Below are positions 37,926 to 63,681 of a stretch of DNA of 64,000 nt, in pieces. How positions within the stretch are numbered: the first letter of the stretch is position 1; each line of letters begins with the position of its first letter. A program made the position numbers and the translations under genes. The notes beneath the pieces were generated by a model, which worked only from the letters and a program-made list of their open reading frames with translations, did not search any database and was not told the origin of the DNA. The DNA is from an uncultured Anaerolineales bacterium (GTDB lineage: Bacteria > Planctomycetota > Phycisphaerae > FEN-1346). The stretch covers positions 322 through 64,321 of the forward strand of contig CAYNLG010000005.1 of the NCBI GenBank assembly GCA_964397995.1, given 5' to 3'.

Positions 37926-38049
37926 TTTTTTTGGCTTCTTTTGACTTTTTTCATGCCTTTTTTTGGCCTCTGGTGGTTTTTTTTGTGCCCGTTTTGTCTT
38001 TTTTTTGCCTTCGTTTGGCTTTTTTGTGGCGGTTTTTGTCTTTTTTTTC
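37926..38049. promoter_or_regulatory. helically phased T-tracts (about 11 tracts of 4-9 T, mean spacing ~10.6 bp): intrinsically curved AT-rich DNA upstream of the island gene
   Basis: Read directly in the sequence: T-runs centred at ~37929, 37940, 37948, 37961, 37980, 37993, 38003, 38016, 38023, 38036, 38045. Local GC is far below the ~70% background. Confidence 0.5.
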
Positions 38050-38224
38050 TCCGGGTGCCGTCGAGACGGCCGCGCGACCCCTTCAGGCGGCCGGCGCCGT
38101 GAAACGGGGCAAGATGGGCAGTATGGAGAAAATGCGGAGGCCGGAATGCGGAATGCAGGCAACGGCTCACGACCGGGCGCGCGGCGTGCGTGGGAACGAG
38201 GTGACTGGGTGACTGGGCAACTAG

Positions 38225-45270: not shown

Positions 45271-45484
45271 GGCCGCGCCGCGGGCCACCGCGGCCGAGAC
45301 GCGCCCCGCCGGGCCGGGCGAGGTCCGGCCGCATTTCTCTGTGACACCGACCGCGCCCGCGGTACAACCATCTTGGGCGGAACCCGGGGGCCGCCGGCCG
45401 CGTCTATCCTCGTATCCGGCTTCGGGTCGGCGGGCCCCCGTCGGGGGCGCGCCCCCGTTCGAACCCTGGTCCGAGGGCACACGA

Positions 45485-48400
45485 ATGACGCGTTACGGAA
45501 CCTGGCTGTGGCTGGCGGCGGTGATCGGGCTCTGCGGGACCGGGACGTGGGCAGCCGCCGCGGCGGCGCCTCCCGAGGCCGCGCCCGCGGCCCCGGCGGC
45601 CGACGACGACGCCCCGCTCAAAGAGCAGACGATCTACATCCCGTACGAGAAGTTGCGGGAGGTGTTCGAGGCGCAGGGGCGCGGCGTCTTTCTGCCGTAC
45701 GAGCGGTTCCAGGAGCTGTGGAAGGCCGCACGCGAGGCCCGGACGCGTCCGCCCGAGGCCGCGCCGCCCATCGAGACGCTCATCGCCGAGGCCGCCTACG
45801 TCGCGACCGTGGCCAAGGACGTGGTCACGGTCGACGGCACGCTCCGCATCGAGGTCCTGAAGGAGGGGTGGAACGAGATACCGCTCGGCCTTCCCCACGC
45901 CGCCATCACCCGGGCCGCTCTCGGCGACGAGCCGGCGCGGATCGTGTCGCGCGGCGAGGCGGGGTACGCGTTGCTGGTGGAGAACGCGGCCGACGCGCCG
46001 CAGGTGCTGGAGCTGGCGCTGACCTTCGCCAAGGCCTACACGAAGGCGCCCGGCCAGAACAGCGTGACGTTCCAGGCGCCGCGGTCGCCGGTCAGCCGCT
46101 GGGACGTCCGCATCCCCGAGTCGGGCGTCAAGGTCAACATCCAGCCCCTCCTGGCCGCCACCGAGGTGCCGGACGAGGCGGGCGCCGACCAGACGCGGGT
46201 CCTGGCGTTCGTCGGGGCCGCCCCCCAGGTCCGGATCGACTGGACCCCCAAGGCCGAGGGCGCCAAGGGTCTGGAGGCCCTGGCCACCGTCCAGTGCCGC
46301 CAGCAGGTCACCATCGACGAGGGCGTGACACGCACCCGGGCCGAACTCGCCTACGAAATCAGCCGCGCCGAACTCCCGCGCCTCGTCGTCGACGTCCCCC
46401 TGGACCAGAAGGTCGTCAACGTCTTCGACCCGAACGTGCGCGAGTGGTCGGTCGAGCAGGTGGCGGCCGACGAAGTCCGGCGGATCGAGGTCCAGCTCTT
46501 CGAGCCCGCCAAGGGGAGCCAGGACCTGGTGGTCGAGCTGGAGAAGTTCGCCAGCGACACGTTGGTGGCCGTGCCCGTCGTCCGGGCCCGCAACGTCGGC
46601 CGCCAGCAGGGCTGGGTCGTCGTGGGCGTCGCCGACGGCCTCCGGGCCGAGGCCGTCCGCCGCGAGGGCCTCCTTCAGGTCGACGCCACCGAGCTGCCCG
46701 CGCCCCTGCGCGGCAAGCGGTGGGACTTCTCGTACCGGTACGCCACGGTGCCTTTCGACCTGGAGCTCCGGGTCGAGACCATCCAGCCGCGCCTGCTGGC
46801 CGAGACGCTCGTCGAGGCCCACCTCGCGCCGGAGGACCTGACGCTTGACGTGCTCGTCGTCTACGATGTCCAGCGGGCCGGCGTCTTCAACCTGGCGGTG
46901 CGCATCCCCGAGGGGTTCGAGGTCCGGAGCGTCGCGGGCGTCCAGGCGGGCGGGGCCCAGCCCGTGGTGGTTGACGCCCACCACGTCGAGGCCCAGCCCG
47001 AGCGGCGCCTCGTCGTCAACCTCGGCCGCAAGGCCCTCGGCCAGGTGGCCCTGGCGGTCCAGCTCCACCGGCCGCTGCGCGAGCCCGACCTGCTGGCCCC
47101 CACCGGCAAGGCCGCGACCGTCCCCGTCCCCGTGCCGCGCGTCGACCCGGAGACGGTCGAGCGCGAGAGCGGCCGCCTGGTCGTCTACGCCCCGGAGAGC
47201 CTGCGCGTGAACCCGGAGACGGCCGACGGTCTGCGGGCGGTTTCCCACGGCGAGGCCGTCCAAGGCATGCGGAGCACGCGGCGTGGCGGGGAGCGGCCGG
47301 CGCTGGCCTACGCCTACAGCCGCGACGCCGTCGCGCTGGCGCTGGCGGCCGAGCGGCGCAAGCCCCAGGTGACCGTCGGCCAGTTGCTGACGGCCCGCAT
47401 CGAGTCGGGCGTCGTCCAGTTCGAGGCCCGGCTCTTCTACGACATCCTTTACAGCGGCGTCAAAAGCGTCCGCCTGGACATCCCGGCCGAGGTCGCGCCG
47501 GAGCTCCGTGTCACAAGCGGCGACATCCGGCACACCGTGGATGACGACGCCGCCGACCTCGCCGACGGCATGGTGGCCTGGCGCCTGACGGGCGAGACCG
47601 AACTGATGGGCCGCCGCGAGATCCGCCTGAAGTGGGAGCGAACCATCGAGAAGCTCGACCTCGGCAACCCCACCGAGATCGCCATCCCGCGCCTCGTGCC
47701 CCGCGAGGTCGACCGGGCCTGGGGCCAGATCGTCCTCGCGAAGGCCGAGACGATCGACGTCATGCCGGCCGAGATGGAGGAATCGCTCCGGCCGATCGAC
47801 CCGCAGCACGACCTGATGCACGGTGTCCGCATCCCGGACGCGGCCCTGGCCTTCGAGTTCCACGACGCCTGGCACATGACCGTCCAGGCCACCCGCTACG
47901 AGCCGAAGGACATCAAGGCGACCGCCGTCGAGGCCGCCGTCGTCCGCTTCGTCGTGACGCGCGGCGACGTGACGAGCGTCCAGGCGCTATACCGGATGCG
48001 AAGCTTCCGGCAGCGGCTGGTCATCCGTCTGCCCGGCGAGGTCGACTTCGACATCCAGCCGGTCCGCCTGAACGGGCGGCCCGTCTCGCTGGAGCAGGGC
48101 GAGGGCGGCGACTACTTCGTGCCCCTGGTCGGCCAGGAACAGAACACGCCCTTCCTGCTCGAACTCCGCTACACCGTGCGGGGGGGCGGGCTGACCCTGA
48201 GCGGTCCCGAGTTCCCCGAAGAGCCCGCCATCCAGAAGGTCTACGCCGCCGTCTACATCCCCACCGAGTGGGTCTACCTGGGAAAGCGCGGCCAGTGGAC
48301 GCCGGAGCTGGTCTGGCGCCTGCGCGGCTTCGGGGCGGCGCCGGTCGGCATGTACGACAGCGGCTGGCTGCTGCCGTGGGTGACGCGCGGCGTGGACGTG

Positions 48401-48994
48401 GACCAGGCGGTGCTCCAGGACTTCGCGACGGACGGGCGGCGGCTGCTCTTCTCGACGCTGCGGCCCGAGCCGGGCCAGGCGGGGGCCCTGCGGGTCGTCG
48501 CCGTCGACGGCACCCTGTACAAGGGGGTCGCCATTGTCGTCCTGCTGGCGCTGGGCCTGCTGCTCGCGCCGATGCGCTTCGGGCGCAAGGTGCTGGCCGT
48601 GGGCCTGCTCCTGGCGGCGGTGGTGCTGGGGGGGGTGTTCCTGCCGTCGGCGGCCCGGGCGACGGTCTCGACGGCCACCGTGGCCGCCTGCTGCGTCGTC
48701 CTCATTATCTGGACCCTCTGGTACCTGCTGATTACCCGGCCGCGCGACCCGCGCCGGCGCGAGCGGCGCGAGGCGCGCCTGGCGGCCCGGGAGCAGGCGG
48801 CCCAAGGCCGGGCGGGCAGCGCCGTCGAGCCCGTCGAGCAACCGCCCAAGGGCGAGCCGGAGGCCGTCGTCGAGGCGGAACCGGATGCGGCCGACCCCAA
48901 GGCCGACGCCGACCCCGAGGCCGCACCCCCGGACGAGGCGGGCGGCCAGGCCGACGAGGATGACACCCAGCGGGAGGAGGGCGGCCATGCGTAA
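45485..48994 (+). CDS. giant membrane-anchored modular protein A (~1170 aa: signal peptide, ~1000-aa extracytoplasmic beta-rich module, C-terminal 2-3 TM helices, acidic tail)
   Basis: Start chosen at MTRYGTWLWLAAVIGLCGTGTWAAAAA. Conserved N-terminal module motif IYIPYEKL...VFLPYERFQELWKAA. C-terminal TMs VAIVVLLALGLLLAP / VLAVGLLLAAVVLGGVF / VAACCVVLIIWTLWYLLI. Its stop overlaps the next gene's ATG by 8 nt. Confidence 0.7.
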   Translation: MTRYGTWLWLAAVIGLCGTGTWAAAAAAPPEAAPAAPAADDDAPLKEQTIYIPYEKLREVFEAQGRGVFLPYERFQELWKAAREARTRPPEAAPPIETLIAEAAYVATVAKDVVTVDGTLRIEVLKEGWNEIPLGLPHAAITRAALGDEPARIVSRGEAGYALLVENAADAPQVLELALTFAKAYTKAPGQNSVTFQAPRSPVSRWDVRIPESGVKVNIQPLLAATEVPDEAGADQTRVLAFVGAAPQVRIDWTPKAEGAKGLEALATVQCRQQVTIDEGVTRTRAELAYEISRAELPRLVVDVPLDQKVVNVFDPNVREWSVEQVAADEVRRIEVQLFEPAKGSQDLVVELEKFASDTLVAVPVVRARNVGRQQGWVVVGVADGLRAEAVRREGLLQVDATELPAPLRGKRWDFSYRYATVPFDLELRVETIQPRLLAETLVEAHLAPEDLTLDVLVVYDVQRAGVFNLAVRIPEGFEVRSVAGVQAGGAQPVVVDAHHVEAQPERRLVVNLGRKALGQVALAVQLHRPLREPDLLAPTGKAATVPVPVPRVDPETVERESGRLVVYAPESLRVNPETADGLRAVSHGEAVQGMRSTRRGGERPALAYAYSRDAVALALAAERRKPQVTVGQLLTARIESGVVQFEARLFYDILYSGVKSVRLDIPAEVAPELRVTSGDIRHTVDDDAADLADGMVAWRLTGETELMGRREIRLKWERTIEKLDLGNPTEIAIPRLVPREVDRAWGQIVLAKAETIDVMPAEMEESLRPIDPQHDLMHGVRIPDAALAFEFHDAWHMTVQATRYEPKDIKATAVEAAVVRFVVTRGDVTSVQALYRMRSFRQRLVIRLPGEVDFDIQPVRLNGRPVSLEQGEGGDYFVPLVGQEQNTPFLLELRYTVRGGGLTLSGPEFPEEPAIQKVYAAVYIPTEWVYLGKRGQWTPELVWRLRGFGAAPVGMYDSGWLLPWVTRGVDVDQAVLQDFATDGRRLLFSTLRPEPGQAGALRVVAVDGTLYKGVAIVVLLALGLLLAPMRFGRKVLAVGLLLAAVVLGGVFLPSAARATVSTATVAACCVVLIIWTLWYLLITRPRDPRRRERREARLAAREQAAQGRAGSAVEPVEQPPKGEPEAVVEAEPDAADPKADADPEAAPPDEAGGQADEDDTQREEGGHA

Positions 48995-51900
48995 CCTGCG
49001 CCCGCACCTGGCCGGCCTCGCGGCGCTCCTGGCCGTCGCCTCCGCGGCGACGGCGAGCCGCGACGCCCTGCCGCCCCAGCCGCCCGCCGACGAACTGGTC
49101 CGCGAACTGTACGTCCCGATGGAGGACCTGAACGTCCTCCTGCAGGGCGGGTCCCGCCGCGTCCTGCTGCCCCGCGACGAGTACGAGGCGCTTCTGGCGA
49201 AAGCGAAGCGCGAGGAGGAGGCGCGGCCGCCGCTCGCGGCAGCGCCCGTGGCGGCCGAGTACCAGATCGAGGTCGGCCGCGAACGCGCCCGCATCCGCGG
49301 CGCCGTCGAGGTCAACGTCCTGGCCCCCGGCCTCCATGCCGTGCCCCTCTCGGTCGGCCAGGTCGGCCTGGCCGAGGCGACGCTCGACGGCACGAGCGCC
49401 CCGCTGGGGCGCGGCGACGACGGGCGGCTGCATCTGTTCGTCGAGGGCAAGGGCCGGCACCGGCTGGAGTTGGCGGCCGTGGCGCCGCTCGAGACCACCG
49501 CCGCCCGCCAGGTCCTCCGCTTCGAGCTGCCGACGCCGGCGGCCACGCGCGTCCGTCTGACCGTGCCCGGCGACGTCGAGGTCAAGAGCGGCGCCGCCGT
49601 CCTCAGCCGCGCCTTCGACGAGGCCAACGGGGTCACCCGCATCGAACTGCTGCCCACACGCGGACCCACGGTGCTCGTCATGACCCTCAACAGCCGCCTC
49701 AAGCGGCTCGACCGCGTTGTGGTCGCCCAGAGCGTCCTGGTGGCCGAGGTCCGCCAGGCGGTCCAGCGCCTGACGGCGACGGTCTCGCTGGATGTCCTGC
49801 ACCGGGCGGTGGACGCCTTCCGGTTCGTCGTGCCCGCCGGGTACGAGGTGACCGACGTCCTCTCGCCGCAGCTCGCCCGCTGGGCGGTGACCGAGGAGGG
49901 CGGCCGGCGTATCCTGGAGGTCCAGCTCCGCGAGGAGGCCACCGGCACCGTCGTCCTGACCATCGGCACGGTCCGCCACGGCCGGGCCGTCGGGCCCTGG
50001 GCCATGCCGCGCCTCGAGCCCCTCGACGTGGTCGGCCACTCGGCCGTGGTCGGCCTGCTGCTGGAGGACCGGCTGAAGGCCGAGGCCCTCCAGCGCGACG
50101 GCCTCATCGGCATCGACACGCCCATGCTCCTGCGGGCCCTGCCGGCCGTGCCCGGCGCCGAGGTGACCGGGGGGCCGGTGCGGCCGGTGGCGGCGTACTA
50201 TGCGCCGCAGGCGGACTTCACCCTGACGGCCGACATCGCCAAGCCCCCCGCCGAACTGCTCGTGACCTCCAACCTGCTGCTCGTCCTCCAGGACAGCGGC
50301 CTGGAGCTCCAGGGCGGGCTGGCCATGCTCCCGAAGGAGGAGAAGCTCTTCACGTTCGATATCGCCGTGCCCGCCGGCTGGGACGTCCTCAGCGTCTCGG
50401 CCGAGGGCGGCCAGGCCCTGCCGTTCGAGCGCTACGGGCCGCGCGGCGAGGACGGCCGCGTCCACGTCCGCCTGCCCCGCGGTCTGGCCGCCGGCCAGGA
50501 GACCCGCATCTACTTCACCGCCAAGCGCGTCCCGGACGACTGGTTCGGCGCGTGGGAGACGCAGACGGTGGCGTTCCCGGCGTTCGCCGTGGCCGGGGCG
50601 GCCCGCGACACCGGGGCCGTGGCGGTCGACGCCCGCGACGACCTGCGGGTGCGGCCGGAGACGCTCGAGCGCCTGACCCCGCTGGACGAGAACGAGAAGA
50701 GCCAGTACGGCCTCGGCGGCGTCGCGACGAGCCTGGCATACCGCTACGAGGGCCGGCCTTACGAGGCCGAACTCCGCGTCACGCGCATCGAGCCGCGCCT
50801 GACCGCCGAGACGTTCAACTTCTTCCGCGTCGAGCGCGACGCCCGGGTCGCCCACTACGAGCTCATCTACACCGTGGAGCAGGCCCGGGCCCGCGAACTG
50901 CGGCTCGTTCTGCCGGCGTCCACGCCGACGGCCCTGGCGATCCGCGGCCTCGACGGCCTCGGCCTGAAGGAGTACACGAGCCAGGAGACCGACGGCGGCC
51001 GCGTGTGGACCGCCGTCCTCGCCGACGCCCGCAAGGGCACGCTCCGCCTGGCGGTCGACTTCGAGCAGCGGCTCGGCGAGGCCGAGCAGGAGACCCTGGG
51101 CCTGCCGCTCGTGCGGGCCGAGGGCGTCCAGTACCAGAGCGGGTTCGTCGCCGTCGAGGGCAGCCCGGAGCTGGACGTCCGCGTGACGGCCCACCCGCGG
51201 CGCGTCGACGTCGGCGAGCTGGTCGACGCCGACTACCTGCCGGGGCGGCGGCTGCTGGGGGCCTACGGTTTCGTCGGCGAGCCGCCCGCGGTGACGCTGG
51301 CCGTCTCGCGCCACGAGACCTACCCCGTGCCGCCCGCCCTCGTCGAGCGGGCCGAGCTGGCGACCGTCCTCTCGGCCTCCGGCGTCGCCCAGAGTGCCGC
51401 GCGCTTCCTCCTGCGGACCAAGGCCCTGTACCTGGAGGTGCGTCTTCCGGCGGGGGCGACGCTGTGGTCGGCCACGCTGGACGGCCGCCCCGCCAAACCC
51501 CAGCAGGAGGGCGAGCGGATTCTGCTCAGCCTGCCAGCGGGGGCTCCCGGCGCCGTCCGCGACCTGCAGGTGGTCTACGAGATGCTGGCCGATCGGCTCC
51601 TGCTCTGGGACCGGCTGGGCGTCCCCTCGCCGCGCCTCGTCCTCCACGAGACCGCCGCCGACAACGGCCGCCAAGTCCCCGTGACCGACCTGGTCTGGAC
51701 GCTGCAGACGCCGGCGGAGCACCGGGTGGTGGCGGCCGAGGGGAGCGTGGTGGCCGAGGGCATCGAGCCGCCCGCCCCGGCCGGGACGCGCGTGGCCGAG
51801 TGGTTGCTGGCGGCAAGCGGCGGGGTGGACTTCGACCACGGTCTGCTCGCGCTGCTGCTCCAGCCGCTCTCGTGCGCGGTCCAGAGCGGCCGGGCCCTCA

Positions 51901-54900
51901 AGAGCACCGAGTATGCCGATGCCCCCGCTTGGGATGACACCGGCGCCATGCCGTCCGAGCTGCCGACGGACGAGGAGGTGCTCGAGGCGGAGATGCCGCC
52001 CCCGGTGTCCCAGGCGCAGGCCGGGGACGTCGCGGGCGAGGCGGCCGCGACCGAGGGCACGGAACAGGCCGTGCGGCGGCCCGAGGAGCCCACGGCCCGC
52101 GAGGTCAGCAAGTGGGCCCTGGCCGGGGCGCGGAGCCTGAACATCGCCCTGACGCGGACGGACGAGGCGGGGGGCGTGGTGTTCCGGAGCCTCGGCGAAG
52201 AGCCGGCCCTGAACGTGACCATCGTCAGCCGGCGGCGCGTCGAGGCCCTGGCCTGGGGCCTGGCCGTGGCGGTCTTCGTCCTGGGCCTCGCCCTGACGCC
52301 GCGCTCCGCCGGCCGCAAGGCCGCCTACGTCGTCGTGGTGCTGCTGGCGGCGACGGCGTTGCCGGCCGTGCCGGGGTGGCTGGAGCTGGCCCTGGTGACG
52401 AACCCGGCCTTCTATGCCGCCTGCCTGCTGGTGCCGTATTACCTGGCGGCGGCGCTGGTCCGCGGGTTCCTGCGGGGGGTGGGCCTGGGGCCGAAGCCGG
52501 CGGCCGCGGCCGCCGCGGCGGCGCTCGTCGCGGCCGGGGTGCTGGTGGCGGGGGCCGGCGTGGCCGAGGCCACCGAGCCGGCGCCCGACCGGCCGTACGT
52601 CGTCCAGATCGTCCCGCTGCCCGACCCCGTGGACGTGCCGGACGACGCCATCCTCGTCCCCTACGACCCGGCCGCCGGGCCCGCCCGGGCCGGTCGCCTC
52701 CTCATCCCCTACGACCGCTACCGCGCTCTGTGGGAGCAGGCCTATCCGGACGAGCGCCGCGAGGGCGACCCGCCGCCGGCGGCGTATGCGCTGGCGGGCG
52801 CGGCCTACACGGCGCGCCTGGCGGGGGAGGAGTACCTGCTCGTGGAGGGCGGTCTGGACCTGGACGTCTACGAGGACGGCCTCATTGCCGTGCCCCTGCC
52901 GCTGGGGGGCGGCGTCCTGGCCCGGGCCGACCTGGACGGCCGGCCCGCCCGCCTCGGTGTGGGCGGCATGCCGGTGCCCGTGCCGAACGCGCCGCCCGGC
53001 TGGGTGGAGCCGGCGTCGGTCAACCTGAAGCAGCCGGTCCGCCAGGCCCCGGTCCAGCAGGCCGAACAGCAGGCCCGCCCCGGGGCGGCGCTGCTCGTCC
53101 TCTACGTCGAGGGCAAGGGCCGCCATCGCCTCGACCTGGCGGTGCGGATGAAGCTGGAGCGTCGCGGCGGGTGGCGCGTGGCCGAGGGCACCTTGCCGCA
53201 CGCCCCCGCCACGGCCCTCACCCTGACCGTGCCCGAGGCCGAGACCGAGCTGCGCCTGGGCGGCGTGGCCGACCGCCGCACCTACGAGACCAAGCAGCCC
53301 GGCGAGACCATCAGGACGGCCCTCGGGCCGGGGGGCGGCGTGACGGTCCGGTGGCGGCCGAAGGTCAGCGAGGGCCACGTCGATTACAGCCTGACGGCCG
53401 AGAGCGCGGCCCTGCTGGACGTCCAGGAAGACCGTGTGCGCCTGACCTGGGACCTGACGCTCCAGTTCCGGCGCACCGAGCGCGAGTTCTTCACCATCGC
53501 GCTGCCCGCCGGGTACCTGGTCGAGGAGGTGGCCGGGACGAACGTGCGGGGCTGGGAGATCCGCGAGGGCGCGGGGGGGCGGCGGCTGGAGGTGTCGCTG
53601 CTAAAGGCCGCCCGCGACGGCGAGTCGCTGCGCCTGACGCTCTGGCGGCCCGGCCGCGTCGCTGCCGCCGGCCCGGAGACCCTGGCCGTGCCGGTGGTGG
53701 GCGTCGAGGGCGCCGTCCGCCACAGCGGCCGCCTCACCGTCCGCCGCAGCCCCCTGCTGGACGTGCGGACGGTGGCGGCGCGCGGCGTCACGCGGACGGA
53801 CGTCCAGGCCGACGCCTTGCCGCGCACCGGCGCCGACGACAGCCCCCTCGGGACGCGGCCGTACCAGGCGTACGCGTTCGCCTCCGTCCCGTTCACCATC
53901 GAGCTGGGCGTCCAGCCGGTCGACGCCCGCGTCTGGGCCGAGGTCCAGTCCATCCTCCGCGTGGCCGACCGCGAGCGGCTCCTGGAGACGCGGGTCCTTT
54001 ACCACGTCCAGGACCGGCCCATCTACCGGGCGAGGCTGGCGATTCCGGACGACCTGGAGATCCGCGAGGTGACCGTGCCCGGGTCGTTCGAGTGGGCCGT
54101 CACGCGCGAGGCCGGGCGGAGGGTTCTGACGGTCTACTTCGGCAGCGGCGTCCTCGGCGACGTCCCGGTGGTCGTCCGTGGCAAGCTCGGCCAGGACGGG
54201 CCGGTCGAGGCCGTCCCCCTGCCGCGCCTGGCCGCCCTCGATGTCGACCGCCAGGAAGCCGACCTCGTCGTCCAGGTCGACCCGGCGTTCGACGTCCGGG
54301 CCCGCGACCTCGACGGCGTCGAGGTGGTCCTGCTGAAGCGGGTCCAGGGGTGGCTGAGCGGCGGGCAGCGCCAGCTCGCGCGCCTGGCGTTCCACATGCG
54401 CGAGCCGGTGTACGGCGGCCGCCTGGAGCTCTCGCCGCGGCAGCCGGACGTGAGCGGCTACACCGTCTCGAACGTCCGTGTCACGAGCCGCGCCCTGGAG
54501 GAAACGATCCTCCTCGTCTTCGACATCCGCCGCGCCGGCGTCCGCCAGGTCGTCTTCCGCCTGCCGGCCTACATGGCCGACGCGCGGATCAGTGTGCCGC
54601 TGCTGCGGCAGAAGACGGTGGAGCCGGTCGAGGGCACGGACCAGGTCCGCGTGACGCTGGACCTGCAGGACGAGGTGATGGACGAGTTGCGGGTGCTGGT
54701 GGAGCGGGACCGGCTGCTGACGCCCCAGGTCCACGAGGCGCCGGTCCCGGTCGTCGAGACCGGGCGCACCGACCGCCGGTACGTCGCCCTGGAAAGCGCC
54801 GGGCGCGACGAGGTCGTCGTCGAGGCGACCGAGGGCCTCGAACCCCTCAGCCGCCAGCAGAAGGAGTGGCGGACGGTGGCCGGCCTGCTCCAGGGCGGCC

Positions 54901-56777
54901 TGATGCAGGTCTACCTGGTCCGGGCCGACGCCGAGCCGCACCTGGCGTTCCGGACCAAGCAGCGGACGGCCGTGGAGACGGCCGGGGCCCGCATCGGGCT
55001 GGCCCGCACGGTCCTGATGATGGACGCCTCCGGGGCGTATCGCGGCGTGCAGACCTACCAGGTCGACAACAGCACCGAGCAGGTGCTGGCGGTGCGGCTG
55101 CCGGCGACGGCGCGGCTGTGGACGGCCCGGGTGGCCGGAGCCCTGGTCAAGCCGGCCGAGGCGGAGGGCGGCGACGCGAGCCTGGTGCGCATCCCGCTCG
55201 TAAAGACCGCCGCCGGCGACCTCGACTATCCAGTCGTCCTGAAGTACGGCGGCAAGCGGCCGCCCCCCGGCGAGGCCGGCCGCGTCGCGTTCCCCCTGAT
55301 CCGCACCGAGAACATCAACGTCGAGCTCAGCCAGGTCGAACTCCGCCTGCCGCGCACCCACCGCTGGGTCCACTTCGACGGCACCCTCGGCCGCGTCACC
55401 CGGGAGGGCGAGTTCGAGGCCGGCGTCCTGGCCTACCAGGGCAAGGTGCTGAAGCGGCTCGTCTCCACGCTCCAGTACGACAACGCCTTCGCCAAGGGCC
55501 GCGCCTTCACCAACCTCCGGCAGTTCCAGAAGGGGCTCAAGCAGACCCAGACGTACTACGCTGACCTGGCCGACCAGGAGGGCAACGAGCGGCTTCAGGA
55601 AGAGGTCCGCAACGCCGCCTCCCTCCTTCGCGAGGCCGACCGCCAGCTCGGCCTCCAGACGACCGAGACCGGCGAGCTCCGCCTCGGCGACGAGGGCCAG
55701 GTCTCCATCGACAACCGCGAGCGCCTCAACGACGCCTACGTGGGGCAGACCAACAAGCTCGCCCGCAACCAGGTCCAGGACGTCGGCGCCAACTGGTCCG
55801 GCGCCCTGAACGAGGCCGACGGCAAGGCCCAGTGGCGCTTCGTCAACCCGAACAACTTCAACTCCGGCTGGTTCGACGCCAACGGCCTGGTCGTCCAGGC
55901 CACCCGGGACGAGGCGGTCTCGGGCAAGGCCGCTGACCTCGACAAGAGCCGCGTCCTGTCCGAGTTCCAGATGCTGGATCAGCGCACGAAGCAGCTCAAG
56001 GCCCCCGCCATCCCCATGCAGAAGGGCGGCAAGGGCAAGGCCGACGCAGATGGCGACCGGCGCGATGAACGGTACCGCGAGGCTCGCCGTCGGGGCGGCC
56101 AGGCCGAAGCCGCCCAGCGCTACGTCCGCAAGCTCGAGGAGCAGCAACAGCAGCTCCAGGTCATCTCGGAGGCGGAAGAGGCCCTGCAGCGGCTGAACGT
56201 GACCGGCGGCGACCCCACGACCATCAACGACATCGTCACCCAGCACGAAGACGGCCTCCAGGCCGGGCGGGGGATCACGGTCTCCCTGGGGGGGGGCGCG
56301 GGCCAGGCCGTTGACTTCAGCGGTGGCCCCATCGCCGCCTTCGAGCACGGCCGCACACACGCCCTCGTCCGCCAGGGCGGCGAAGGCCGCACCGGCCTCG
56401 TCAGCCTGGACGTCGACCTGCCCGCCTTCGACGCGAGCCGCTGGCAACGCGTCCGCTTCACCACGCCGCGCGGCGACGTGCGGCTTGACGGCTGGGCCGC
56501 CTCCCGGTCGATGGTCGAAGGCCTGGAGCGGCTGGGCGTGGTGGTGGCGTCCGTGGCGGTGGTGCTGCTGGTTCGGGCCGTCGCCCGCCGCGCCCGCACC
56601 CGGGCGCTGCACGGGCTCCTCTCGACGGCGCTGATCGTCCTCGGGGCGCTCGGCGTGCTGTTCGGCGTCCTGCCGGTGGCCGGGTTGCTGGCCCTGCTGG
56701 CCGGCATCGTCTGGAAGATCGCGCGGGTCGTGGGGCGGCGGATCGGCGGAGCGGAAGTTTCGGGGACAGGATACTAA
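48987..56777 (+). CDS. giant modular protein B (~2596 aa): two tandem copies of the protein-A-type module, each ending in a multi-TM anchor
   Basis: ATG with GGGAGGAGG SD. Module 1 starts LYVPMEDL...VLLPRDEYEALLAKA and ends with TMs (LAVAVFVLGLAL; YVVVVLLAATALPAV; AFYAACLLVPYYLAAALV). Module 2 restarts after an internal signal-like helix with VVQIVPLPDP...LLIPYDRYRALWEQAY and ends with TMs (VVVASVAVVLLV; ALIVLGALGVLFGVLPVAGLLALLAGIV). The stop lies inside a palindromic repeat. Confidence 0.7.
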   Translation: MRNLRPHLAGLAALLAVASAATASRDALPPQPPADELVRELYVPMEDLNVLLQGGSRRVLLPRDEYEALLAKAKREEEARPPLAAAPVAAEYQIEVGRERARIRGAVEVNVLAPGLHAVPLSVGQVGLAEATLDGTSAPLGRGDDGRLHLFVEGKGRHRLELAAVAPLETTAARQVLRFELPTPAATRVRLTVPGDVEVKSGAAVLSRAFDEANGVTRIELLPTRGPTVLVMTLNSRLKRLDRVVVAQSVLVAEVRQAVQRLTATVSLDVLHRAVDAFRFVVPAGYEVTDVLSPQLARWAVTEEGGRRILEVQLREEATGTVVLTIGTVRHGRAVGPWAMPRLEPLDVVGHSAVVGLLLEDRLKAEALQRDGLIGIDTPMLLRALPAVPGAEVTGGPVRPVAAYYAPQADFTLTADIAKPPAELLVTSNLLLVLQDSGLELQGGLAMLPKEEKLFTFDIAVPAGWDVLSVSAEGGQALPFERYGPRGEDGRVHVRLPRGLAAGQETRIYFTAKRVPDDWFGAWETQTVAFPAFAVAGAARDTGAVAVDARDDLRVRPETLERLTPLDENEKSQYGLGGVATSLAYRYEGRPYEAELRVTRIEPRLTAETFNFFRVERDARVAHYELIYTVEQARARELRLVLPASTPTALAIRGLDGLGLKEYTSQETDGGRVWTAVLADARKGTLRLAVDFEQRLGEAEQETLGLPLVRAEGVQYQSGFVAVEGSPELDVRVTAHPRRVDVGELVDADYLPGRRLLGAYGFVGEPPAVTLAVSRHETYPVPPALVERAELATVLSASGVAQSAARFLLRTKALYLEVRLPAGATLWSATLDGRPAKPQQEGERILLSLPAGAPGAVRDLQVVYEMLADRLLLWDRLGVPSPRLVLHETAADNGRQVPVTDLVWTLQTPAEHRVVAAEGSVVAEGIEPPAPAGTRVAEWLLAASGGVDFDHGLLALLLQPLSCAVQSGRALKSTEYADAPAWDDTGAMPSELPTDEEVLEAEMPPPVSQAQAGDVAGEAAATEGTEQAVRRPEEPTAREVSKWALAGARSLNIALTRTDEAGGVVFRSLGEEPALNVTIVSRRRVEALAWGLAVAVFVLGLALTPRSAGRKAAYVVVVLLAATALPAVPGWLELALVTNPAFYAACLLVPYYLAAALVRGFLRGVGLGPKPAAAAAAAALVAAGVLVAGAGVAEATEPAPDRPYVVQIVPLPDPVDVPDDAILVPYDPAAGPARAGRLLIPYDRYRALWEQAYPDERREGDPPPAAYALAGAAYTARLAGEEYLLVEGGLDLDVYEDGLIAVPLPLGGGVLARADLDGRPARLGVGGMPVPVPNAPPGWVEPASVNLKQPVRQAPVQQAEQQARPGAALLVLYVEGKGRHRLDLAVRMKLERRGGWRVAEGTLPHAPATALTLTVPEAETELRLGGVADRRTYETKQPGETIRTALGPGGGVTVRWRPKVSEGHVDYSLTAESAALLDVQEDRVRLTWDLTLQFRRTEREFFTIALPAGYLVEEVAGTNVRGWEIREGAGGRRLEVSLLKAARDGESLRLTLWRPGRVAAAGPETLAVPVVGVEGAVRHSGRLTVRRSPLLDVRTVAARGVTRTDVQADALPRTGADDSPLGTRPYQAYAFASVPFTIELGVQPVDARVWAEVQSILRVADRERLLETRVLYHVQDRPIYRARLAIPDDLEIREVTVPGSFEWAVTREAGRRVLTVYFGSGVLGDVPVVVRGKLGQDGPVEAVPLPRLAALDVDRQEADLVVQVDPAFDVRARDLDGVEVVLLKRVQGWLSGGQRQLARLAFHMREPVYGGRLELSPRQPDVSGYTVSNVRVTSRALEETILLVFDIRRAGVRQVVFRLPAYMADARISVPLLRQKTVEPVEGTDQVRVTLDLQDEVMDELRVLVERDRLLTPQVHEAPVPVVETGRTDRRYVALESAGRDEVVVEATEGLEPLSRQQKEWRTVAGLLQGGLMQVYLVRADAEPHLAFRTKQRTAVETAGARIGLARTVLMMDASGAYRGVQTYQVDNSTEQVLAVRLPATARLWTARVAGALVKPAEAEGGDASLVRIPLVKTAAGDLDYPVVLKYGGKRPPPGEAGRVAFPLIRTENINVELSQVELRLPRTHRWVHFDGTLGRVTREGEFEAGVLAYQGKVLKRLVSTLQYDNAFAKGRAFTNLRQFQKGLKQTQTYYADLADQEGNERLQEEVRNAASLLREADRQLGLQTTETGELRLGDEGQVSIDNRERLNDAYVGQTNKLARNQVQDVGANWSGALNEADGKAQWRFVNPNNFNSGWFDANGLVVQATRDEAVSGKAADLDKSRVLSEFQMLDQRTKQLKAPAIPMQKGGKGKADADGDRRDERYREARRRGGQAEAAQRYVRKLEEQQQQLQVISEAEEALQRLNVTGGDPTTINDIVTQHEDGLQAGRGITVSLGGGAGQAVDFSGGPIAAFEHGRTHALVRQGGEGRTGLVSLDVDLPAFDASRWQRVRFTTPRGDVRLDGWAASRSMVEGLERLGVVVASVAVVLLVRAVARRARTRALHGLLSTALIVLGALGVLFGVLPVAGLLALLAGIVWKIARVVGRRIGGAEVSGTGY

Positions 56778-56882: not shown

Positions 56883-57680
56883 ATGGCTCCAGACGACGCC
56901 CTGCCTTTCGCGCGCGCCGGCGGCACCGAAGGGGACCGGTACGCGCGGCACCGGGTGTTGGCGGGGGTCGGCCCGGCGGGGCAGGCGCGGCTGGCGGCCG
57001 CCTCGGCCCTGGTCGTCGGGGCGGGCGGCCTCGGGTCCGGGGCGCTGCCGTATCTGGCGGCCTTGGGCGTCGGCCGCCTCGGCCTCTCGGACGGCGAGAC
57101 GGTCGAGCCGTCGAACCTGAACCGCCAGGTCCTCTACGGCCCGGCCGACGTCGGCCGCGTCAAGGTCGAGGCCGCCGCCGAGCGCCTGGCCGCCGTCAAT
57201 CCCGACGTGCGGCTGGAGACGTTTGCCGCGCGCGTGACGGCCGAGACAGCCCGCGCCCGCGTGGCCGGGTGGGACGTGGTGCTCGACTGCACGGACAACT
57301 TCCCGGCCCGGTTCGCGGTGGCGGACGCCTGCTGGGCCGAGGGGGTGCCGCTCGTCTCGGCCGCCGCCGTCCGGTTCGAGGGCCTGCTGCTGGCGGTCCT
57401 GCCGGAGGCGGGGAGCCCGTGCTACCGGTGCCTCGTGCCGGAGGCCCCGCCGCGCGCCGACGAACCGCGGGCCCTGGAGGTCGGCGTCTTCGGGCCGGTG
57501 CCGGGGGTTCTCGGGACGCTCCAGGCGCTGGAGGCGGGGAAGGTGCTGCTCGGCCTCGGGGGGACGCTCGCGGACCGGCTGCTGGTCGTCGACGGCCTGG
57601 CCGGGACGATGCGGACCGTGCGGCGGACGCGTGACCCGGCGTGCCCGGTCTGCGGCGTAGTTTCGGGGACAGGATACTAA
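56883..57680 (+). CDS. ThiF/MoeB/HesA-family E1-like adenylyltransferase
   Basis: Nucleotide-binding LVVGAGGLGSGALPYLAALGVGRLGLSDGETVEPSNLNRQ. Paired CxxC motifs (CYRC ... CPVC). Its stop lies inside repeat copy 2. Confidence 0.8.
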   Translation: MAPDDALPFARAGGTEGDRYARHRVLAGVGPAGQARLAAASALVVGAGGLGSGALPYLAALGVGRLGLSDGETVEPSNLNRQVLYGPADVGRVKVEAAAERLAAVNPDVRLETFAARVTAETARARVAGWDVVLDCTDNFPARFAVADACWAEGVPLVSAAAVRFEGLLLAVLPEAGSPCYRCLVPEAPPRADEPRALEVGVFGPVPGVLGTLQALEAGKVLLGLGGTLADRLLVVDGLAGTMRTVRRTRDPACPVCGVVSGTGY

Positions 57681-58583: not shown

Positions 58584-61214
<2,631 letters not shown>

Positions 61215-61485: not shown

Positions 61486-63681
61486 GTGACCGATTCGAAG
61501 CCTCTCACGCCCGACGAGCGGGCCGCCGCCCGGCGCGGCTGGCGCGACGCCCACCTGACCGACCGCCAGCGCGGCCTGGCCGAGGCCCGCGCCTGGTTCG
61601 TCTCCGCCGTCTACTGGAGCCCTGGCGACTACGACCGCGGGAGGCTCGTCGCCGAGCTCAAGCGCATGCGCGACTTGGGCATCACGTCCGTGCGCTATCA
61701 CACGCACCGGCCCGAGGAGACCGAGCCCGGCGTTTACGACTTCACCCGGACCGACGACTGGATGGACGCCGCCTCCGAGGCCGGCATCCAGGTCGTCTAC
61801 CACCTGGGGCACACCCCGAGCGACGCGCTGCTGGCGGCCCACGGCATCCCGCGCGAGGCCTACGAGGGCGCGATCCTGGCCGAGCCCGAGATGCAGGTCC
61901 TCATGGAGGCCTGCATCGGCCCGGAGATCGCCCGGTACCGCGGCCACCCGGCCCTCGACCACTGGCACGGCTTCGGCGAGCCGAACGCCGGCGGCAAGAA
62001 CCTGGAGCGCGAGGCGGACCGCGCCGGCTTTGCCGCCTGGCTCCGCGCCCGCTACGGCACCGTCGAGGCCCTCGACGCCGCCTGGAACCTGTACCCCGTG
62101 GCGGGGCGGCCGATCGTGACCTCGTTCGAGGACGCGTGCGGCCTGACCGAGGCCGCCGAGCGCCGGCCCGGCCAGACCGAGGCCCTGGTCCAGGGCGGGC
62201 CGTTCGGCAAACGCCTGTACGGGGCCAACCGCGACCTGCTCCGGTACCTGACGGAGAAGGCCATCGCCCGGACCCGGGCGTGGGTCGACCTGGCCCACCG
62301 GCTGGACCCGGACCACCCGTTCATGGTCGGGGCGCACCAGCTCTTCGCCAACCAGCCGTACTTCCGCTGGGACGTCCCCACGTGGGCGCGCACAGGCGAC
62401 GCCTTCGGCACCAGCATCCACCTGTCGTGGCACTTCGAGCCGGTGCGCGGCGAAGTGGACCGGCCGGTCTACCTCCAGGCCCGCCTCACGCGCGACGCCC
62501 TCAAGGAGGGCCTCACGAGCGCCTTCGAGACCACCGGCGGCGCCGCCCAGTACAGCGGCGGGTACCCGAACGCGATGACCGCCGGCCTCATGCGCCGCCT
62601 CGTCTGCTCGTATCTGGCGGCCGGCAACCTTGCCCTGGCGTTCTGGACGTGGAACCATCGGCCGGGCGGCTGGGAGGCCGGCGAGTACGGCATGACCACG
62701 TGGTCCGGGCGCCTGACGCCCTGGGCGGAGGTGGTCGGCGCGGCGGCGCGGGGCCTGGAGGCGCACGCCGAGGAGCTGTGGGAGGCCGACCCGGAGACGC
62801 GTGTCGGCGTGCTGACGTCGTGGGAGACCGACGCCATCCTCCTGCAGGAGCCCGAGTCGCACCTGCTGCAGGACGCCCCGACGTTCGCCTTCACCGGCAC
62901 CAAGATGCAGGGCGTCCGCGCCCGCATCGGCGCCGGCCGCGCGCTGGTCAACCACCGCGTCCCTTTCGAGTACGTGACCGAGGCCGAGGTGCTCGAAGGC
63001 CTCTGCGAGGCGTACCCGGTGATCTACGCCCCGCACTGCCGGGCGCTCTCGGACGAGGTGGTGGCGCGGCTGGCGGCGTACGTGGCGGCGGGGGGCCGCC
63101 TTGTCGCCGACGTCCAGTTCGCCATGCTCCGGCCGACCGGCAAGATGCCCCCCGTGGGCGACGGCACGCCCGCCGAGCGCCTCTTCGGGGCGTTCGTCGA
63201 TATGATCCACCACACGCGGACCGCCGAGATGGCCCTCGACGATATCCCGCTGGACGGCTTCTTCGGCGACCTGGTCGTCACCGAGGCCGACGTCCTGGCC
63301 CGTTTCGCCGACGGGCGGCCCGCCGTCACGGAGCACCGCGTGGGGCGCGGCGCGGCCGTGCTCGTCGCCTTCGACCCCGCCTGGATGTGCCGCGCCCCGG
63401 GACGCGACGACCTCGAGACCTGGCTCGCGGGCCTGGTGGCGGGGGACTGGGAGCCGGGGTGGTCGGCGTCGGGGGCGCCGCTGGCGGTGCGCCTGGCGGC
63501 CCCGGGGGCGGACCACGTCTTCCTGATGAACGACGGGCCGGAGGCCGTGGAGGTGGCGGTCGAGGCGGCCGACCGGCGGTATGCCTCGGCCGTCGAGGTG
63601 CTCTCGGGCGAGACGGTCGACCCGGCCAAGGTGCCGCTTAAGGGCGCTTCGGCCGCCTGGCTCCGCCTGGAGAAGGCCTGA
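61486..63681 (+). CDS. glycoside hydrolase family 42-like beta-galactosidase
   Basis: N-terminal TIM-barrel segment VRYHTHRPEETEPGVYDF..DDWMD..GIQVVYHLG and size (~730 aa) fit the GH42 layout (catalytic, trimerisation-like and C-terminal beta domains). Confidence 0.6.
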   Translation: MTDSKPLTPDERAAARRGWRDAHLTDRQRGLAEARAWFVSAVYWSPGDYDRGRLVAELKRMRDLGITSVRYHTHRPEETEPGVYDFTRTDDWMDAASEAGIQVVYHLGHTPSDALLAAHGIPREAYEGAILAEPEMQVLMEACIGPEIARYRGHPALDHWHGFGEPNAGGKNLEREADRAGFAAWLRARYGTVEALDAAWNLYPVAGRPIVTSFEDACGLTEAAERRPGQTEALVQGGPFGKRLYGANRDLLRYLTEKAIARTRAWVDLAHRLDPDHPFMVGAHQLFANQPYFRWDVPTWARTGDAFGTSIHLSWHFEPVRGEVDRPVYLQARLTRDALKEGLTSAFETTGGAAQYSGGYPNAMTAGLMRRLVCSYLAAGNLALAFWTWNHRPGGWEAGEYGMTTWSGRLTPWAEVVGAAARGLEAHAEELWEADPETRVGVLTSWETDAILLQEPESHLLQDAPTFAFTGTKMQGVRARIGAGRALVNHRVPFEYVTEAEVLEGLCEAYPVIYAPHCRALSDEVVARLAAYVAAGGRLVADVQFAMLRPTGKMPPVGDGTPAERLFGAFVDMIHHTRTAEMALDDIPLDGFFGDLVVTEADVLARFADGRPAVTEHRVGRGAAVLVAFDPAWMCRAPGRDDLETWLAGLVAGDWEPGWSASGAPLAVRLAAPGADHVFLMNDGPEAVEVAVEAADRRYASAVEVLSGETVDPAKVPLKGASAAWLRLEKA

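What the first reader, a model, noticed from the sequence alone, without database searches (positions are those of the whole stretch)
45485..56777. Translationally coupled giant gene pair built from three copies of a ~1100-aa membrane-anchored module
Protein A (45485-48994) and the two halves of protein B (48987-~52500 and ~52550-56777) share a common architecture. Each has a signal or signal-like helix, a conserved N-terminal motif, ~1000 aa of beta-rich extracytoplasmic sequence, 2-3 TM helices, and a charged tail. The N-terminal motifs are IYIPYEKL..VFLPYERFQELWKAA (A), LYVPMEDL..VLLPRDEYEALLAKA (B module 1) and VVQIVPLPDP..LLIPYDRYRALWEQAY (B module 2). So B looks like a fusion of two A-like genes. 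The A stop overlaps the B start by 8 nt. Together they encode about 3770 aa of one repeated surface-protein module. I cannot place the module in any family I know: there is no thioester CxEQ, no vWA, and no catalytic motif. That makes it a candidate new cell-surface or envelope system, perhaps adhesin-, S-layer- or barrier-like. It is also a clear case of module duplication and fusion.
Basis: partly seen in the sequence, partly recalled or inferred. Interest (0 to 1): 0.75.

Follow-up and report, generated by a model that had tools for sequence, protein, structure and literature searches.

The report
Undescribed giant periplasmic scaffold gene pair
Two overlapping giant genes encode three copies of a ~1,000-residue, membrane-anchored, all-beta periplasmic module. 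The pair is strongly conserved across uncultured Planctomycetota, Kiritimatiellia and Lentisphaeria, matches no described protein family, and has no known function.

Summary
A (45485-48994, 1169 aa) and B (48987-56777, 2596 aa) are real genes (GC3 0.95). They contain three co-linear homologous modules (BLASTP E 1e-17 to 1e-25; profile-profile E 6.5e-40 over 858 columns; 23-27% identity).

Each module has a Sec signal, a double "hhhP[YM][ED]" motif, five large beta-sandwich domains, a beta-hairpin and three TM helices. In B module 2 the signal is retained as a fourth TM helix. D2-D4 are internal repeats.

The positive-inside rule puts all beta-rich parts in the periplasm, on the cytoplasmic membrane. 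That argues against an adhesin or S-layer.

The A-then-B pair is present in every one of about 80 related loci with enough downstream DNA: Phycisphaerae, Pirellulales, Thermoguttaceae, Kiritimatiellia, Victivallales/Lentisphaeria and one Omnitrophota. At least 60 of 76 loci keep the exact 8-nt ATGNNNTAR overlap. No flanking gene is conserved.

Orthologues are 50-63% identical across phyla, and all named ones are MAG "hypothetical proteins". Pfam, NCBIfam, PADLOC, PHROGs and PDB sequences give no hit. Fold searches give only domain-level similarity (M1-aminopeptidase N-domain, ribophorin I/OST1, integrin legs).

Best reading: a non-catalytic heteromeric periplasmic scaffold specific to the PVC superphylum. 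Its exact role is unresolved.

The parts
45312..45330 (+). Terminator-like GC hairpin plus T-rich tail after the upstream GH123-like gene. It suggests the A-B pair is its own transcription unit.
   Evidence: The pattern scan found 2 such sites against 2.1 expected by chance, so this is weak evidence on its own.
45485..48994 (+). Gene A, 1169 aa: one module.
   Evidence: GC3 0.954. Identical to database gene call P0001. 928 homologues, the top 120 of them full-length at 50-63% identity.
45485..45562 (+). A signal peptide (aa 1-26; hydrophobic core LWLAAVIGLCGT, TWA|A cleavage-like site; no lipobox).
   Evidence: AF2 helix 7-17.
45617..45754 (+). A N-terminal motif (aa 45-90): IYIPYEKL...GVFLPYERFQELWKAA. 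It is the best conserved segment of A, at 68% mean identity.
   Evidence: AF2 gives two helices with low confidence (pLDDT 50-68).
45767..48508 (+). A periplasmic beta-sandwich chain (aa 95-1008): domains D1 95-262, D2 263-432, D3 433-625, D4 626-808, D5 809-955, a short linker, and the final beta-hairpin 984-1008.
48509..48736 (+). A membrane anchor: three TM helices (aa ~1014-1032, 1036-1054, 1065-1083).
   Evidence: Hydropathy scan. AF2 helices 1009-1084. K/R-rich loop 1 and tail. 37% mean identity and no conserved charged residue.
48737..48991 (+). A cytoplasmic tail: basic at the start (RPRDPRRRERRE), then acidic and low in complexity. Poorly conserved (22%).
48972..48994 (+). Coupling junction: GGGAGGAGG (48972-48980), then the B start ATG 48987 overlapping the A stop TAA 48992-48994 (ATGCGTAA).
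   Evidence: The same 8-nt overlap occurs in at least 60 of 76 related loci.
48987..56777 (+). Gene B, 2596 aa: two fused modules.
   Evidence: GC3 0.959. Identical to P0121. 374 homologues, the listed ones 2238-3504 aa (mostly ~2500-2900) at 42-62% identity over the aligned part.
48987..49055 (+). B signal peptide (aa 1-23).
49095..49226 (+). B module-1 N-terminal motif (aa 37-80): LYVPMEDL...VLLPRDEYEALLAKA.
49239..51761 (+). B module-1 periplasmic beta region (aa 85-925), co-linear with A 31-871.
   Evidence: 56% mean identity among orthologues.
51762..52106 (+). B module-1 variable acidic linker (aa 926-1040). In longer orthologues this is where the 400-900-aa accessory inserts sit.
   Evidence: 20% identity. 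Insert mapping. Insert content.
52107..52481 (+). B module-1 pre-membrane beta-hairpin motif (aa 1041-1080) and TM helices 1-3 (aa ~1085-1160).
52482..52571 (+). B TM helix 4 (aa ~1174-1192): the former signal peptide of module 2, retained as a transmembrane segment.
   Evidence: Hydropathy. A K/R-rich loop lies before it and an acidic segment after it. It aligns with the signal peptides of A and B1.
52584..52772 (+). B module-2 N-terminal motif (aa 1200-1262): ILVPYDP...LLIPYDRYRALWEQAY.
52773..55391 (+). B module-2 periplasmic beta region (aa 1263-2135), co-linear with A 49-952.
   Evidence: hhalign E 6.5e-40. The AF2 model of B 1400-2596 is beta up to model residue 733. Foldseek returns largely the same top hit list as for A.
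55404..56396 (+). Module-2-specific insert (aa 2140-2470): three long helices (B ~2142-2230), a small conserved Asn/Trp-rich piece, disordered stretches and a 48-residue helix (B ~2356-2403).
   Evidence: 15-32% identity.
56397..56741 (+). B module-2 pre-membrane beta-hairpin (aa 2471-2508; consensus GLASLDV.LP.RG..YRFTTPRGE) and TM helices 5-7 (aa ~2515-2582).

Best explanation
A and B are the two subunits of one complex that sits on the periplasmic face of the cytoplasmic membrane. It is found in members of the PVC superphylum (Planctomycetota, Kiritimatiellia, Lentisphaeria) and one Omnitrophota genome.

Shown:
- The complex is built from three paralogous ~1,000-aa modules. Each has a Sec signal, a duplicated short N-terminal motif, five 150-200-aa beta-sandwich domains (the middle three are internal repeats), a beta-hairpin and a three-helix membrane anchor.
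- All beta-rich parts face the periplasm.
- Selection acts on the periplasmic parts. The anchors and cytoplasmic tails are weakly conserved.
- The gene order and the 8-nt stop/start overlap are conserved across phyla.
- Fusion states differ between lineages: A + B1B2 is usual, and an A-B1 fusion occurs once.

Inferred:
- The overlap and the fusions enforce fixed module stoichiometry, so the modules assemble with each other.
- The N-terminal motif is the best conserved segment but is poorly ordered in the monomer model. It may be an inter-module clasp.
- There is no catalytic, transport or energy-coupling motif, no conserved partner gene and no conserved polar residue in the TM helices. The domains resemble non-catalytic docking domains (M1-aminopeptidase N-domain, ribophorin I, PIG-T, integrin legs). 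The complex therefore most likely acts as a passive structural platform or spacer in the periplasm. It would organise or dock other envelope components.
- In some lineages extra interaction domains (STN/secretin-N-like, alpha/alpha-toroid) are plugged into the module-1 linker.
For: - Coding and homology.
- Topology: hydropathy, AF2 helices, positive-inside counts.
- All-beta multi-domain models with pLDDT 83.8 and 77.9. Internal repeats D2-D4.
- The DUF4424 paper proposes that this fold builds large multi-component complexes (PMC3848476).
- Pair conserved and flanks not conserved.
- 8-nt overlap in at least 60 of 76 loci.
- Fusion variant P0314.
- Conservation by region: beta regions 55-61%, N-motif 68%, TM 37%, tail 22%.
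- The A tree roughly follows taxonomy.
- No motif for thioester, MIDAS, zincin, lipobox or sortase (one chance LPRTG, see the Against line).
- No hit in Pfam, NCBIfam, PADLOC, PHROGs, PDB sequences or plasmids.
Against: - No experiment, localisation or expression data exist.
- The A-B interaction is inferred from gene structure only. No multimer prediction could be run.
- "Scaffold" is partly an argument from absence of catalytic signatures. An unrecognised enzymatic or ligand-binding site is possible, for example the invariant D743/Q748/K753/E755/D772/D776 cluster and the ten invariant Trp residues in A.
- A two-module variant (P0314) weakens a strict three-module, pseudo-trimeric picture.
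- pTM of 0.44-0.47 means the overall shape is not predicted.
- AlphaFold-database fold libraries were unavailable, so a described distant relative could have been missed.
- One LPRTG at B aa 1611 is mid-protein, with no adjacent C-terminal hydrophobic anchor, and is taken as a chance match.
Confidence: 0.5

Rival explanations
1. Cell-surface adhesin or S-layer-like coat. The beta-sandwich chains would be displayed outside the cell and mediate attachment or form a lattice.
Against: - C-terminal alpha-helical TM anchors and basic cytoplasmic loops place the proteins in the cytoplasmic membrane of diderm bacteria.
- There is no outer-membrane export signal, no functional sorting motif and no RTX or autotransporter domain.
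- 50-63% identity between phyla is far above what adhesins or S-layer proteins keep.
- The pair appears to be single-copy in most genomes; one Victivallales MAG has two loci.
Confidence: 0.05
2. Alpha-2-macroglobulin-like periplasmic protease trap or defensive barrier. An inner-membrane-anchored beta-sandwich chain would capture invading proteases or other attackers, as E. coli ECAM/YfhM does.
For: - Same compartment and the same general build: a periplasmic chain of beta-sandwiches tethered to the cytoplasmic membrane.
- One orthologue (P0199) has a prenyltransferase/TED-like alpha/alpha toroid inserted after the fifth sandwich (33.1 bits). This recalls the TED insertion of A2M.
Against: - No MG, A2M or TED Pfam hit in A, B or 15 distant or atypical A-type relatives.
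- No CxEQ thioester in A or B. By eye, none in the P0199 insert either.
- No lipobox, and no adjacent PBP1c-type gene.
- The best fold matches are to LTA4H-N/ribophorin-type sandwiches. MG domains score lower. The ECAM match has probability 0.28 and TM-score 0.05.
- PADLOC gives no hit.
Confidence: 0.05
3. Periplasmic glycan-binding or retention platform. The sandwiches would bind imported polysaccharide chains and hold them at the cytoplasmic membrane for degradation and uptake in these polysaccharide-degrading lineages.
For: - The carrier lineages (Phycisphaerae, Pirellulales, Kiritimatiellia, Lentisphaeria) are known glycan degraders (background knowledge).
- In this window the pair lies between GH123-like and GH42-like genes.
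- Ten invariant Trp residues in A.
- A weak, non-significant profile match of D5 to the fucosidase C-terminal sandwich (E 0.5).
Against: - No CBM family hit.
- Glycoside hydrolase neighbours are not conserved in other genomes.
- The CBM-like fold matches are generic for beta-sandwiches.
- Uniform 55-61% conservation over about 900 aa per module fits protein-protein packing better than a few sugar sites.
Confidence: 0.12
4. Ribophorin-I/PIG-T-like accessory subunit. The modules would dock client proteins or lipid-linked substrates to a catalytic membrane enzyme encoded elsewhere in the genome.
For: - PIG-T also matches.
- Same topology in each case: an exoplasmic N-terminal sandwich chain, a C-terminal TM anchor and a cytoplasmic tail.
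Against: - TM-scores are 0.30 or less.
- No sequence signal to PDB chains.
- No glycosyltransferase or transamidase is conserved nearby.
Confidence: 0.1
5. Artefact: long GC-rich open frames that are not genes, or similarity between the modules caused by composition.
For: The window is 72% GC and full of long shadow ORFs.
Against: - GC3 of 0.95, against 0.77-0.80 for the overlapping antisense frames.
- Hundreds of full-length orthologues at 42-63% identity.
- High-confidence AF2 folds.
- The shuffle control gave at most 27.7 bits against 99.8 observed.
Confidence: 0.01

Closest known systems
N-terminal beta-sandwich domain of M1 aminopeptidases / leukotriene A4 hydrolase, and the related DUF4424 domain (lpg2210, PDB 4g2a)
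   Different: - 5-13% identity and no sequence or HMM signal.
- No peptidase domain and no HExxH.
- Here the domain occurs about five times per module, and the protein is membrane-anchored.
Ribophorin I / OST1 (and PIG-T): lumenal scaffold subunits of eukaryotic ER membrane enzyme complexes
   Different: - TM-score 0.30 or less, about 10% identity, no sequence homology.
- One TM helix there, three here.
- No catalytic partner is linked to the pair.
- Each module is more than twice as long as the lumenal part of ribophorin I (chains of 432-580 residues), and there are three modules.
Bacterial alpha-2-macroglobulin (ECAM/YfhM)
   Same: A giant periplasmic chain of beta-sandwiches tethered to the cytoplasmic membrane. 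It is encoded in a small conserved operon.
   Different: - No MG, A2M or TED domains, no thioester, no lipobox and no PBP1c partner.
- Fold match only at probability 0.28 and TM-score 0.05.
BatD / DUF4139-DUF4140 / TIGR02226-type envelope proteins
   Same: Signal peptide, beta-rich exoplasmic part and C-terminal TM anchor. They occur in related phyla.
   Different: No hit to any of these models in Pfam or NCBIfam at E <= 0.1-1 for A, B or eight distant relatives. There are no MoxR, DUF58 or vWA neighbours.

Membership tests
Alpha-2-macroglobulin / thioester-containing proteins | MG / A2M / A2M_TED domains detectable by HMM | tested here: not met
   Pfam gave 0 families for A and B at E <= 0.1. 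Eight distant and seven atypical-length A-type relatives also gave none.
Alpha-2-macroglobulin / thioester-containing proteins | CxEQ thioester motif | tested here: not met
   A regex search found none in A or B. A has 4 Cys and B has 2.
Alpha-2-macroglobulin / thioester-containing proteins | Lipoprotein anchor (lipobox) and an adjacent pbpC-type gene in bacteria | tested here: not met
   No lipobox. No flanking family is shared by more than 5 of 81 loci.
Ribophorin I / OST1 | Sequence or HMM similarity to the Ribophorin_I family | tested here: not met
   No Pfam hit. No PDB sequence hit with a single sequence or with a profile.
Ribophorin I / OST1 | Two-domain lumenal beta-sandwich fold with a C-terminal TM anchor | tested here: inconclusive
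Ribophorin I / OST1 | Association with an STT3-type oligosaccharyltransferase | not testable with these tools
   None is encoded next to the pair in any locus. Whole genomes could not be profiled.
BatD / Bat aerotolerance operon proteins | BatD-type HMM hit and MoxR-DUF58-vWA neighbours | tested here: not met
   No Pfam or NCBIfam hit. The neighbours differ in every lineage and include no MoxR or vWA gene.
DUF4139/DUF4140 (TIGR02231, MuiA-like) | HMM hit to PF13598/PF13600 or TIGR02231 | tested here: not met
   none, even at E <= 1.
vWA / VIT-vWA envelope proteins | vWA domain with a DxSxS MIDAS motif | tested here: not met
Adhesins / S-layer proteins | Export beyond the outer membrane or a cell-wall sorting signal, together with fast sequence divergence | tested here: not met
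   Alpha-helical inner-membrane anchors. No functional sorting motif and no adhesin or S-layer Pfam domain. 50-63% identity between phyla.
Known anti-phage defence or phage proteins | HMM hit in PADLOC or PHROGs | tested here: not met
   none.

The most novel reading that the evidence does not exclude
The A-B complex is a PVC-specific periplasmic "exoskeleton" or spacer. A lattice or ring of the three-module assembly on the outer face of the cytoplasmic membrane would set periplasm width or shape the membrane invaginations typical of the PVC cell plan. It would connect to outer-membrane channels through the module-1 linker, where some lineages carry STN/secretin-N-like domains. This would be the first dedicated structural determinant of that cell plan.
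Probability: 0.08. Interest if true: 0.85.

Novelty: categorically new. Interest (0 to 1): 0.58.

Why it matters
This is a large protein family: 5,413 clusters at 50% identity match the A profile, 1,592 of them at E <= 1e-30. It consists of very big, strongly conserved envelope proteins, yet no family library or solved structure covers it. Every homologue that carries an organism name comes from a metagenome-assembled genome.

Cross-phylum conservation of about 3,765 aa of sequence, of the gene order and of the 8-nt junction points to strong purifying selection. It suggests an important, still unknown envelope function in environmentally abundant PVC bacteria.

The family is also a clear worked example of module triplication with fusion. 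A signal peptide has been recycled as a transmembrane helix, and a second fusion state (A-B1) acts as Rosetta-stone evidence for a complex.

Defining the family would allow annotation of thousands of "hypothetical" giant genes and give cryo-ET and proteomics a concrete target.

Tried and rejected
- **Family and sequence searches with no result.**
  - Pfam and NCBIfam on A, B and neighbours: nothing for A or B.
  - Pfam at E <= 1 on eight distant A relatives and at E <= 0.01 on seven atypical-length ones: nothing.
  - PDB sequence searches with single sequences and with the family profile: nothing significant.
  - PADLOC, PHROGs and plasmid tblastn: nothing.
- **Conserved partner genes.** All-against-all clustering of flank ORFs from 81 loci found no flank family shared by more than 5 loci.
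- **Cultured carriers.** A third homologue search started from a "Blastopirellula" MAG orthologue, together with a cluster look-up. All named hits are MAG proteins called hypothetical.
- **Literature.** Searches on PVC conserved hypotheticals, giant genes, crateriform structures and AlphaFold-based DUF studies found nothing about this family. The only useful paper concerns the fold.
- **Technical failures.**
It was redone with full-length homologues.
  - A Pfam scan of the whole alignment A1 exceeded the size limit.
- **Ideas rejected.**
  - Horizontal mobility as the reason for the high identity. The A tree roughly follows taxonomy, the context is housekeeping, and there is no plasmid or phage signal.
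  - A channel or transporter role for the TM helices. They have no conserved polar residues and only 37% identity.
Full report
**1. Are the genes real?**

The window is 72% GC and full of long shadow ORFs. The two + strand frames stand out: GC3 is 0.954 for 45485-48994 and 0.959 for 48987-56777. The antisense ORFs that overlap them have GC3 of 0.77-0.80 and inverted codon-position patterns.

The database holds identical gene products of exactly 1169 aa (P0001) and 2596 aa (P0121).

A ends ...GGC CAT GCG TAA, and B starts at the ATG inside it (ATGCGTAA, 48987-48994). GGGAGGAGG ends six bases upstream of that ATG.

A terminator-like hairpin at 45312-45330 follows the upstream GH123-like gene. 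The scan found no more such sites than chance predicts, so this is weak evidence.

**2. Are there three homologous modules?**

Yes.

- BLASTP gives A 41-671 vs B 1213-1864 (E 1e-24, 24% identity), A 31-871 vs B 26-840 (E 1e-17, 23%) and B 58-474 vs B 1237-1699 (E 5e-20, 27%).
- 187 scored shuffles of B2 reach at most 27.7 bits, against 99.8 observed.
- A MAFFT alignment of the three pieces is co-linear from the N-terminal motif to the last sandwich.
- hhalign of the A-family alignment against the B-family alignment gives 100% probability, E 6.5e-40, over 858 columns (A 49-952 against B 1232-2150).

**3. Anatomy**

AlphaFold2 with 54 orthologues gives a confident model of A (mean pLDDT 83.8, 661 residues at 90 or above). 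Residues 98-1008 are all-beta. Four TM-length helices (1009-1084) and a fifth in the cytoplasmic tail follow.

The model of B 1400-2596 (pLDDT 77.9) has the same beta chain. It is followed by three long helices, disordered stretches, a 48-residue helix, a beta-hairpin and three TM helices.

I split the A ectodomain into five domains. Local hhalign on slices of the family alignment shows that D2, D3 and D4 are repeats of one unit (probability 95.5, 96.7 and 85). D1 and D5 are not detectably related to them.

Hydropathy and the positive-inside rule give a consistent topology:

- A has a signal peptide, about 960 periplasmic residues, three TM helices with a K/R-rich first loop, and a basic-then-acidic cytoplasmic tail.
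- B has a signal peptide, about 1,060 periplasmic residues and three TM helices.
- A K/R-rich loop follows, then a fourth helix (aa 1174-1192). This helix aligns with the signal peptides of A and B1 and returns the chain to the periplasm.
- About 1,300 further periplasmic residues follow, then three TM helices.

B is therefore a fusion of two A-like units in which the second signal peptide became a transmembrane segment.

Neither protein has a CxEQ, DxSxS, HExxH or lipobox motif. The single LPRTG, at B aa 1611, lies mid-protein.

**4. Conservation and distribution**

- A has 928 homologues at E <= 0.001 in the 90%-clustered database. The best 120 are full-length and 50-63% identical.
- B has 374 homologues. 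The listed ones are 2238-3504 aa (mostly about 2500-2900) and 42-62% identical over the aligned part.
- None has a Pfam domain over the core. Every name given is "hypothetical protein".
- A profile search of 1.84 billion cluster representatives finds 5,413 clusters at E <= 0.001 and 1,592 at E <= 1e-30.
- A scan of one genome per GTDB species finds 334 species through two exact peptide patterns. The 80 best loci come from Phycisphaerae, Pirellulales, Thermoguttaceae, Planctomycetaceae-labelled MAGs, Kiritimatiellia, Victivallales/Lentisphaeria, Verrucomicrobiota and one Omnitrophota. Some "Anaerolineales" labels on binchicken MAGs look like placeholders.
- Every named hit in three homologue searches and one cluster look-up is a MAG or metagenome protein. 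No listed hit shows UniRef among its sources. This probably explains why Pfam has no model for the family.
- A neighbour-joining tree of A roughly follows taxonomy, so inheritance is mainly vertical.

**5. Gene context**

In every locus with enough downstream DNA, A is followed by B on the same strand.

In 60 of 76 loci the junction is the same 8-nt overlap, ATGNNNTAR, mostly ATGCGTAA or ATGCGTAG. Several more loci contain it, but my script picked a nearer alternative start.

No flanking gene family is shared by more than 5 of 81 loci. Neighbours range from SecA, Lnt and RF-1 in a Kiritimatiellia genome to two-component regulators in a Phycisphaerae-like genome. In this window they are a GH123-like gene, ThiF/MoeB, ClpB and a GH42-like gene. 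The pair is therefore a self-contained cassette in ordinary chromosomal context.

One divergent complete gene, P0314 (2372 aa, L088 10001-17119), fuses an A-like module (37% identity) to a B1-like module (31% identity). No third module lies next to it. That fusion argues that the modules work together. It also shows that three modules in one operon is not obligatory.

**6. Where selection acts**

| Region | Mean identity to the window protein |
|---|---|
| A N-terminal motif | 68% |
| A domains D1-D5 | 55-61% |
| A TM helices | 37% |
| A cytoplasmic tail | 22% |
| B beta regions | 55-56% |
| B module-1 linker | 20% |
| B module-2 helical and disordered insert | 15-32% |

The TM helices carry no conserved charged residue. 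The functional core is therefore periplasmic, and the helices look like anchors. They do not look like a channel or motor.

**7. Comparison with known families**

- Pfam, NCBIfam, PADLOC, PHROGs, PDB sequences (single sequence and profile) and plasmid tblastn give nothing.
- Foldseek aligns long stretches with integrin alpha legs, OST1/ribophorin I and PIG-T, but TM-scores are 0.30 or less.
- The common feature of these matches is a non-catalytic sandwich that docks other proteins. The DUF4424 paper makes the same suggestion for this fold (PMC3848476).
- No defining feature of A2M/TEP, ribophorin I, BatD, DUF4139/4140, vWA proteins, adhesins or defence systems was met (see the membership table).

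**8. Accessory inserts**

All long B variants (2930-3504 aa) carry their extra 400-900 aa at a single site. That site is the linker between module-1 D5 and its pre-membrane hairpin, about aa 980-1040 in the window's B.

- The P0199 insert contains a prenyltransferase/squalene-cyclase-like alpha/alpha toroid above the Pfam cut-off (33.1 bits against 26.1), plus weak FecR_C and STN signals.
- The P0186, P0187 and P0208 inserts contain two tandem copies of a unit with STN, Secretin_N and FecR_C signals, all below cut-off.

These inserts are hints that the linker is a docking site for periplasmic partners. They do not prove it.

**9. Interpretation**

Shown:

- A conserved two-gene, three-module complex candidate anchored in the cytoplasmic membrane and facing the periplasm.
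- Its module stoichiometry is fixed by gene fusion and a conserved overlapping stop/start.

Inferred:

- The modules assemble with each other, possibly through the N-terminal motif. That motif is the best conserved segment and is poorly ordered in the monomer model.
- The assembly serves as a passive scaffold, platform or spacer in the periplasm.

I put about 0.5 on this general picture. The specific versions are each much less likely:

| Reading | Confidence |
|---|---|
| Glycan-retention platform | 0.12 |
| Ribophorin-like accessory subunit | 0.10 |
| Periplasm-shaping exoskeleton | 0.08 |
| A2M-like trap | 0.05 |
| Adhesin or S-layer | 0.05 |

**10. Verdict**

The surface, adhesin or S-layer guess is not.

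I rate the family as undescribed. The fold of its domains is ordinary, but the module, the architecture and the cassette match nothing catalogued.

Interest is moderate to high. It rests on size, conservation and the absence of any annotation. No mechanism has been demonstrated.

Noticed in passing
window 37594-40336: tRNA-Met (CAT) at 37594-37669 is followed by a stretch of much lower GC (0.595 at 38-40 kb against 0.72 for the window; GC skew +0.24). The stretch holds a 703-aa ORF (38225-40336, GC3 0.66) with no Pfam, NCBIfam or PADLOC hit. It may be foreign DNA integrated next to a tRNA.
   Followed up: partly
window ~51925-52106 (B aa ~980-1040); P0186, P0187, P0208, P0199, P0198, P0233: The acidic, poorly conserved linker after module-1 D5 is the single place where longer orthologues carry 400-900-aa inserts. 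One insert has a squalene-cyclase/prenyltransferase-like alpha/alpha toroid (above the Pfam cut-off). Others have tandem STN/Secretin_N/FecR_C-like units (below cut-off).
   Followed up: partly
L088 10001-17119 (P0314, GCA_051651625.1): A divergent complete gene of 2372 aa fuses an A-like module to a B1-like module, and no third module lies next to it. This is a different fusion state of the same family.
   Followed up: partly
window 48987-48994 and 76 related loci: The stop/start overlap is conserved at the nucleotide level (mostly ATGCGTAA or ATGCGTAG) from Phycisphaerae to Kiritimatiellia and Omnitrophota. A nearly always ends ...(H/x)A* and B nearly always begins MR.
   Followed up: yes
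L019 and L029 (contigs CAZJYI010000010 and CAZJYI010000118): One Victivallales MAG carries two separate A-B loci, so the cassette can be duplicated within a genome. Alternatively the bin is mixed.
   Followed up: no
window 42430-45270, 56883-57680, 58584-61214, 61486-63681, 34054-34581: The neighbours are a GH123-like protein (weak hit), a ThiF/MoeB-type adenylyltransferase, ClpB, a GH42-like protein and a rubrerythrin, which suggests an anaerobe. ThiF is also downstream of the pair in one close relative (L003), but the flanks are otherwise not conserved.
   Followed up: partly
A aa 743-776 (window ~47711-47812): A has an invariant cluster of charged and polar residues, D743, Q748, K753, E755, D772 and D776, in the motif VDRAWGQIVLAKAETIDV...RPIDPQHDLM, in the later part of D4 (aa 626-808). 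It could be an interface or an unrecognised ligand site.
   Followed up: no
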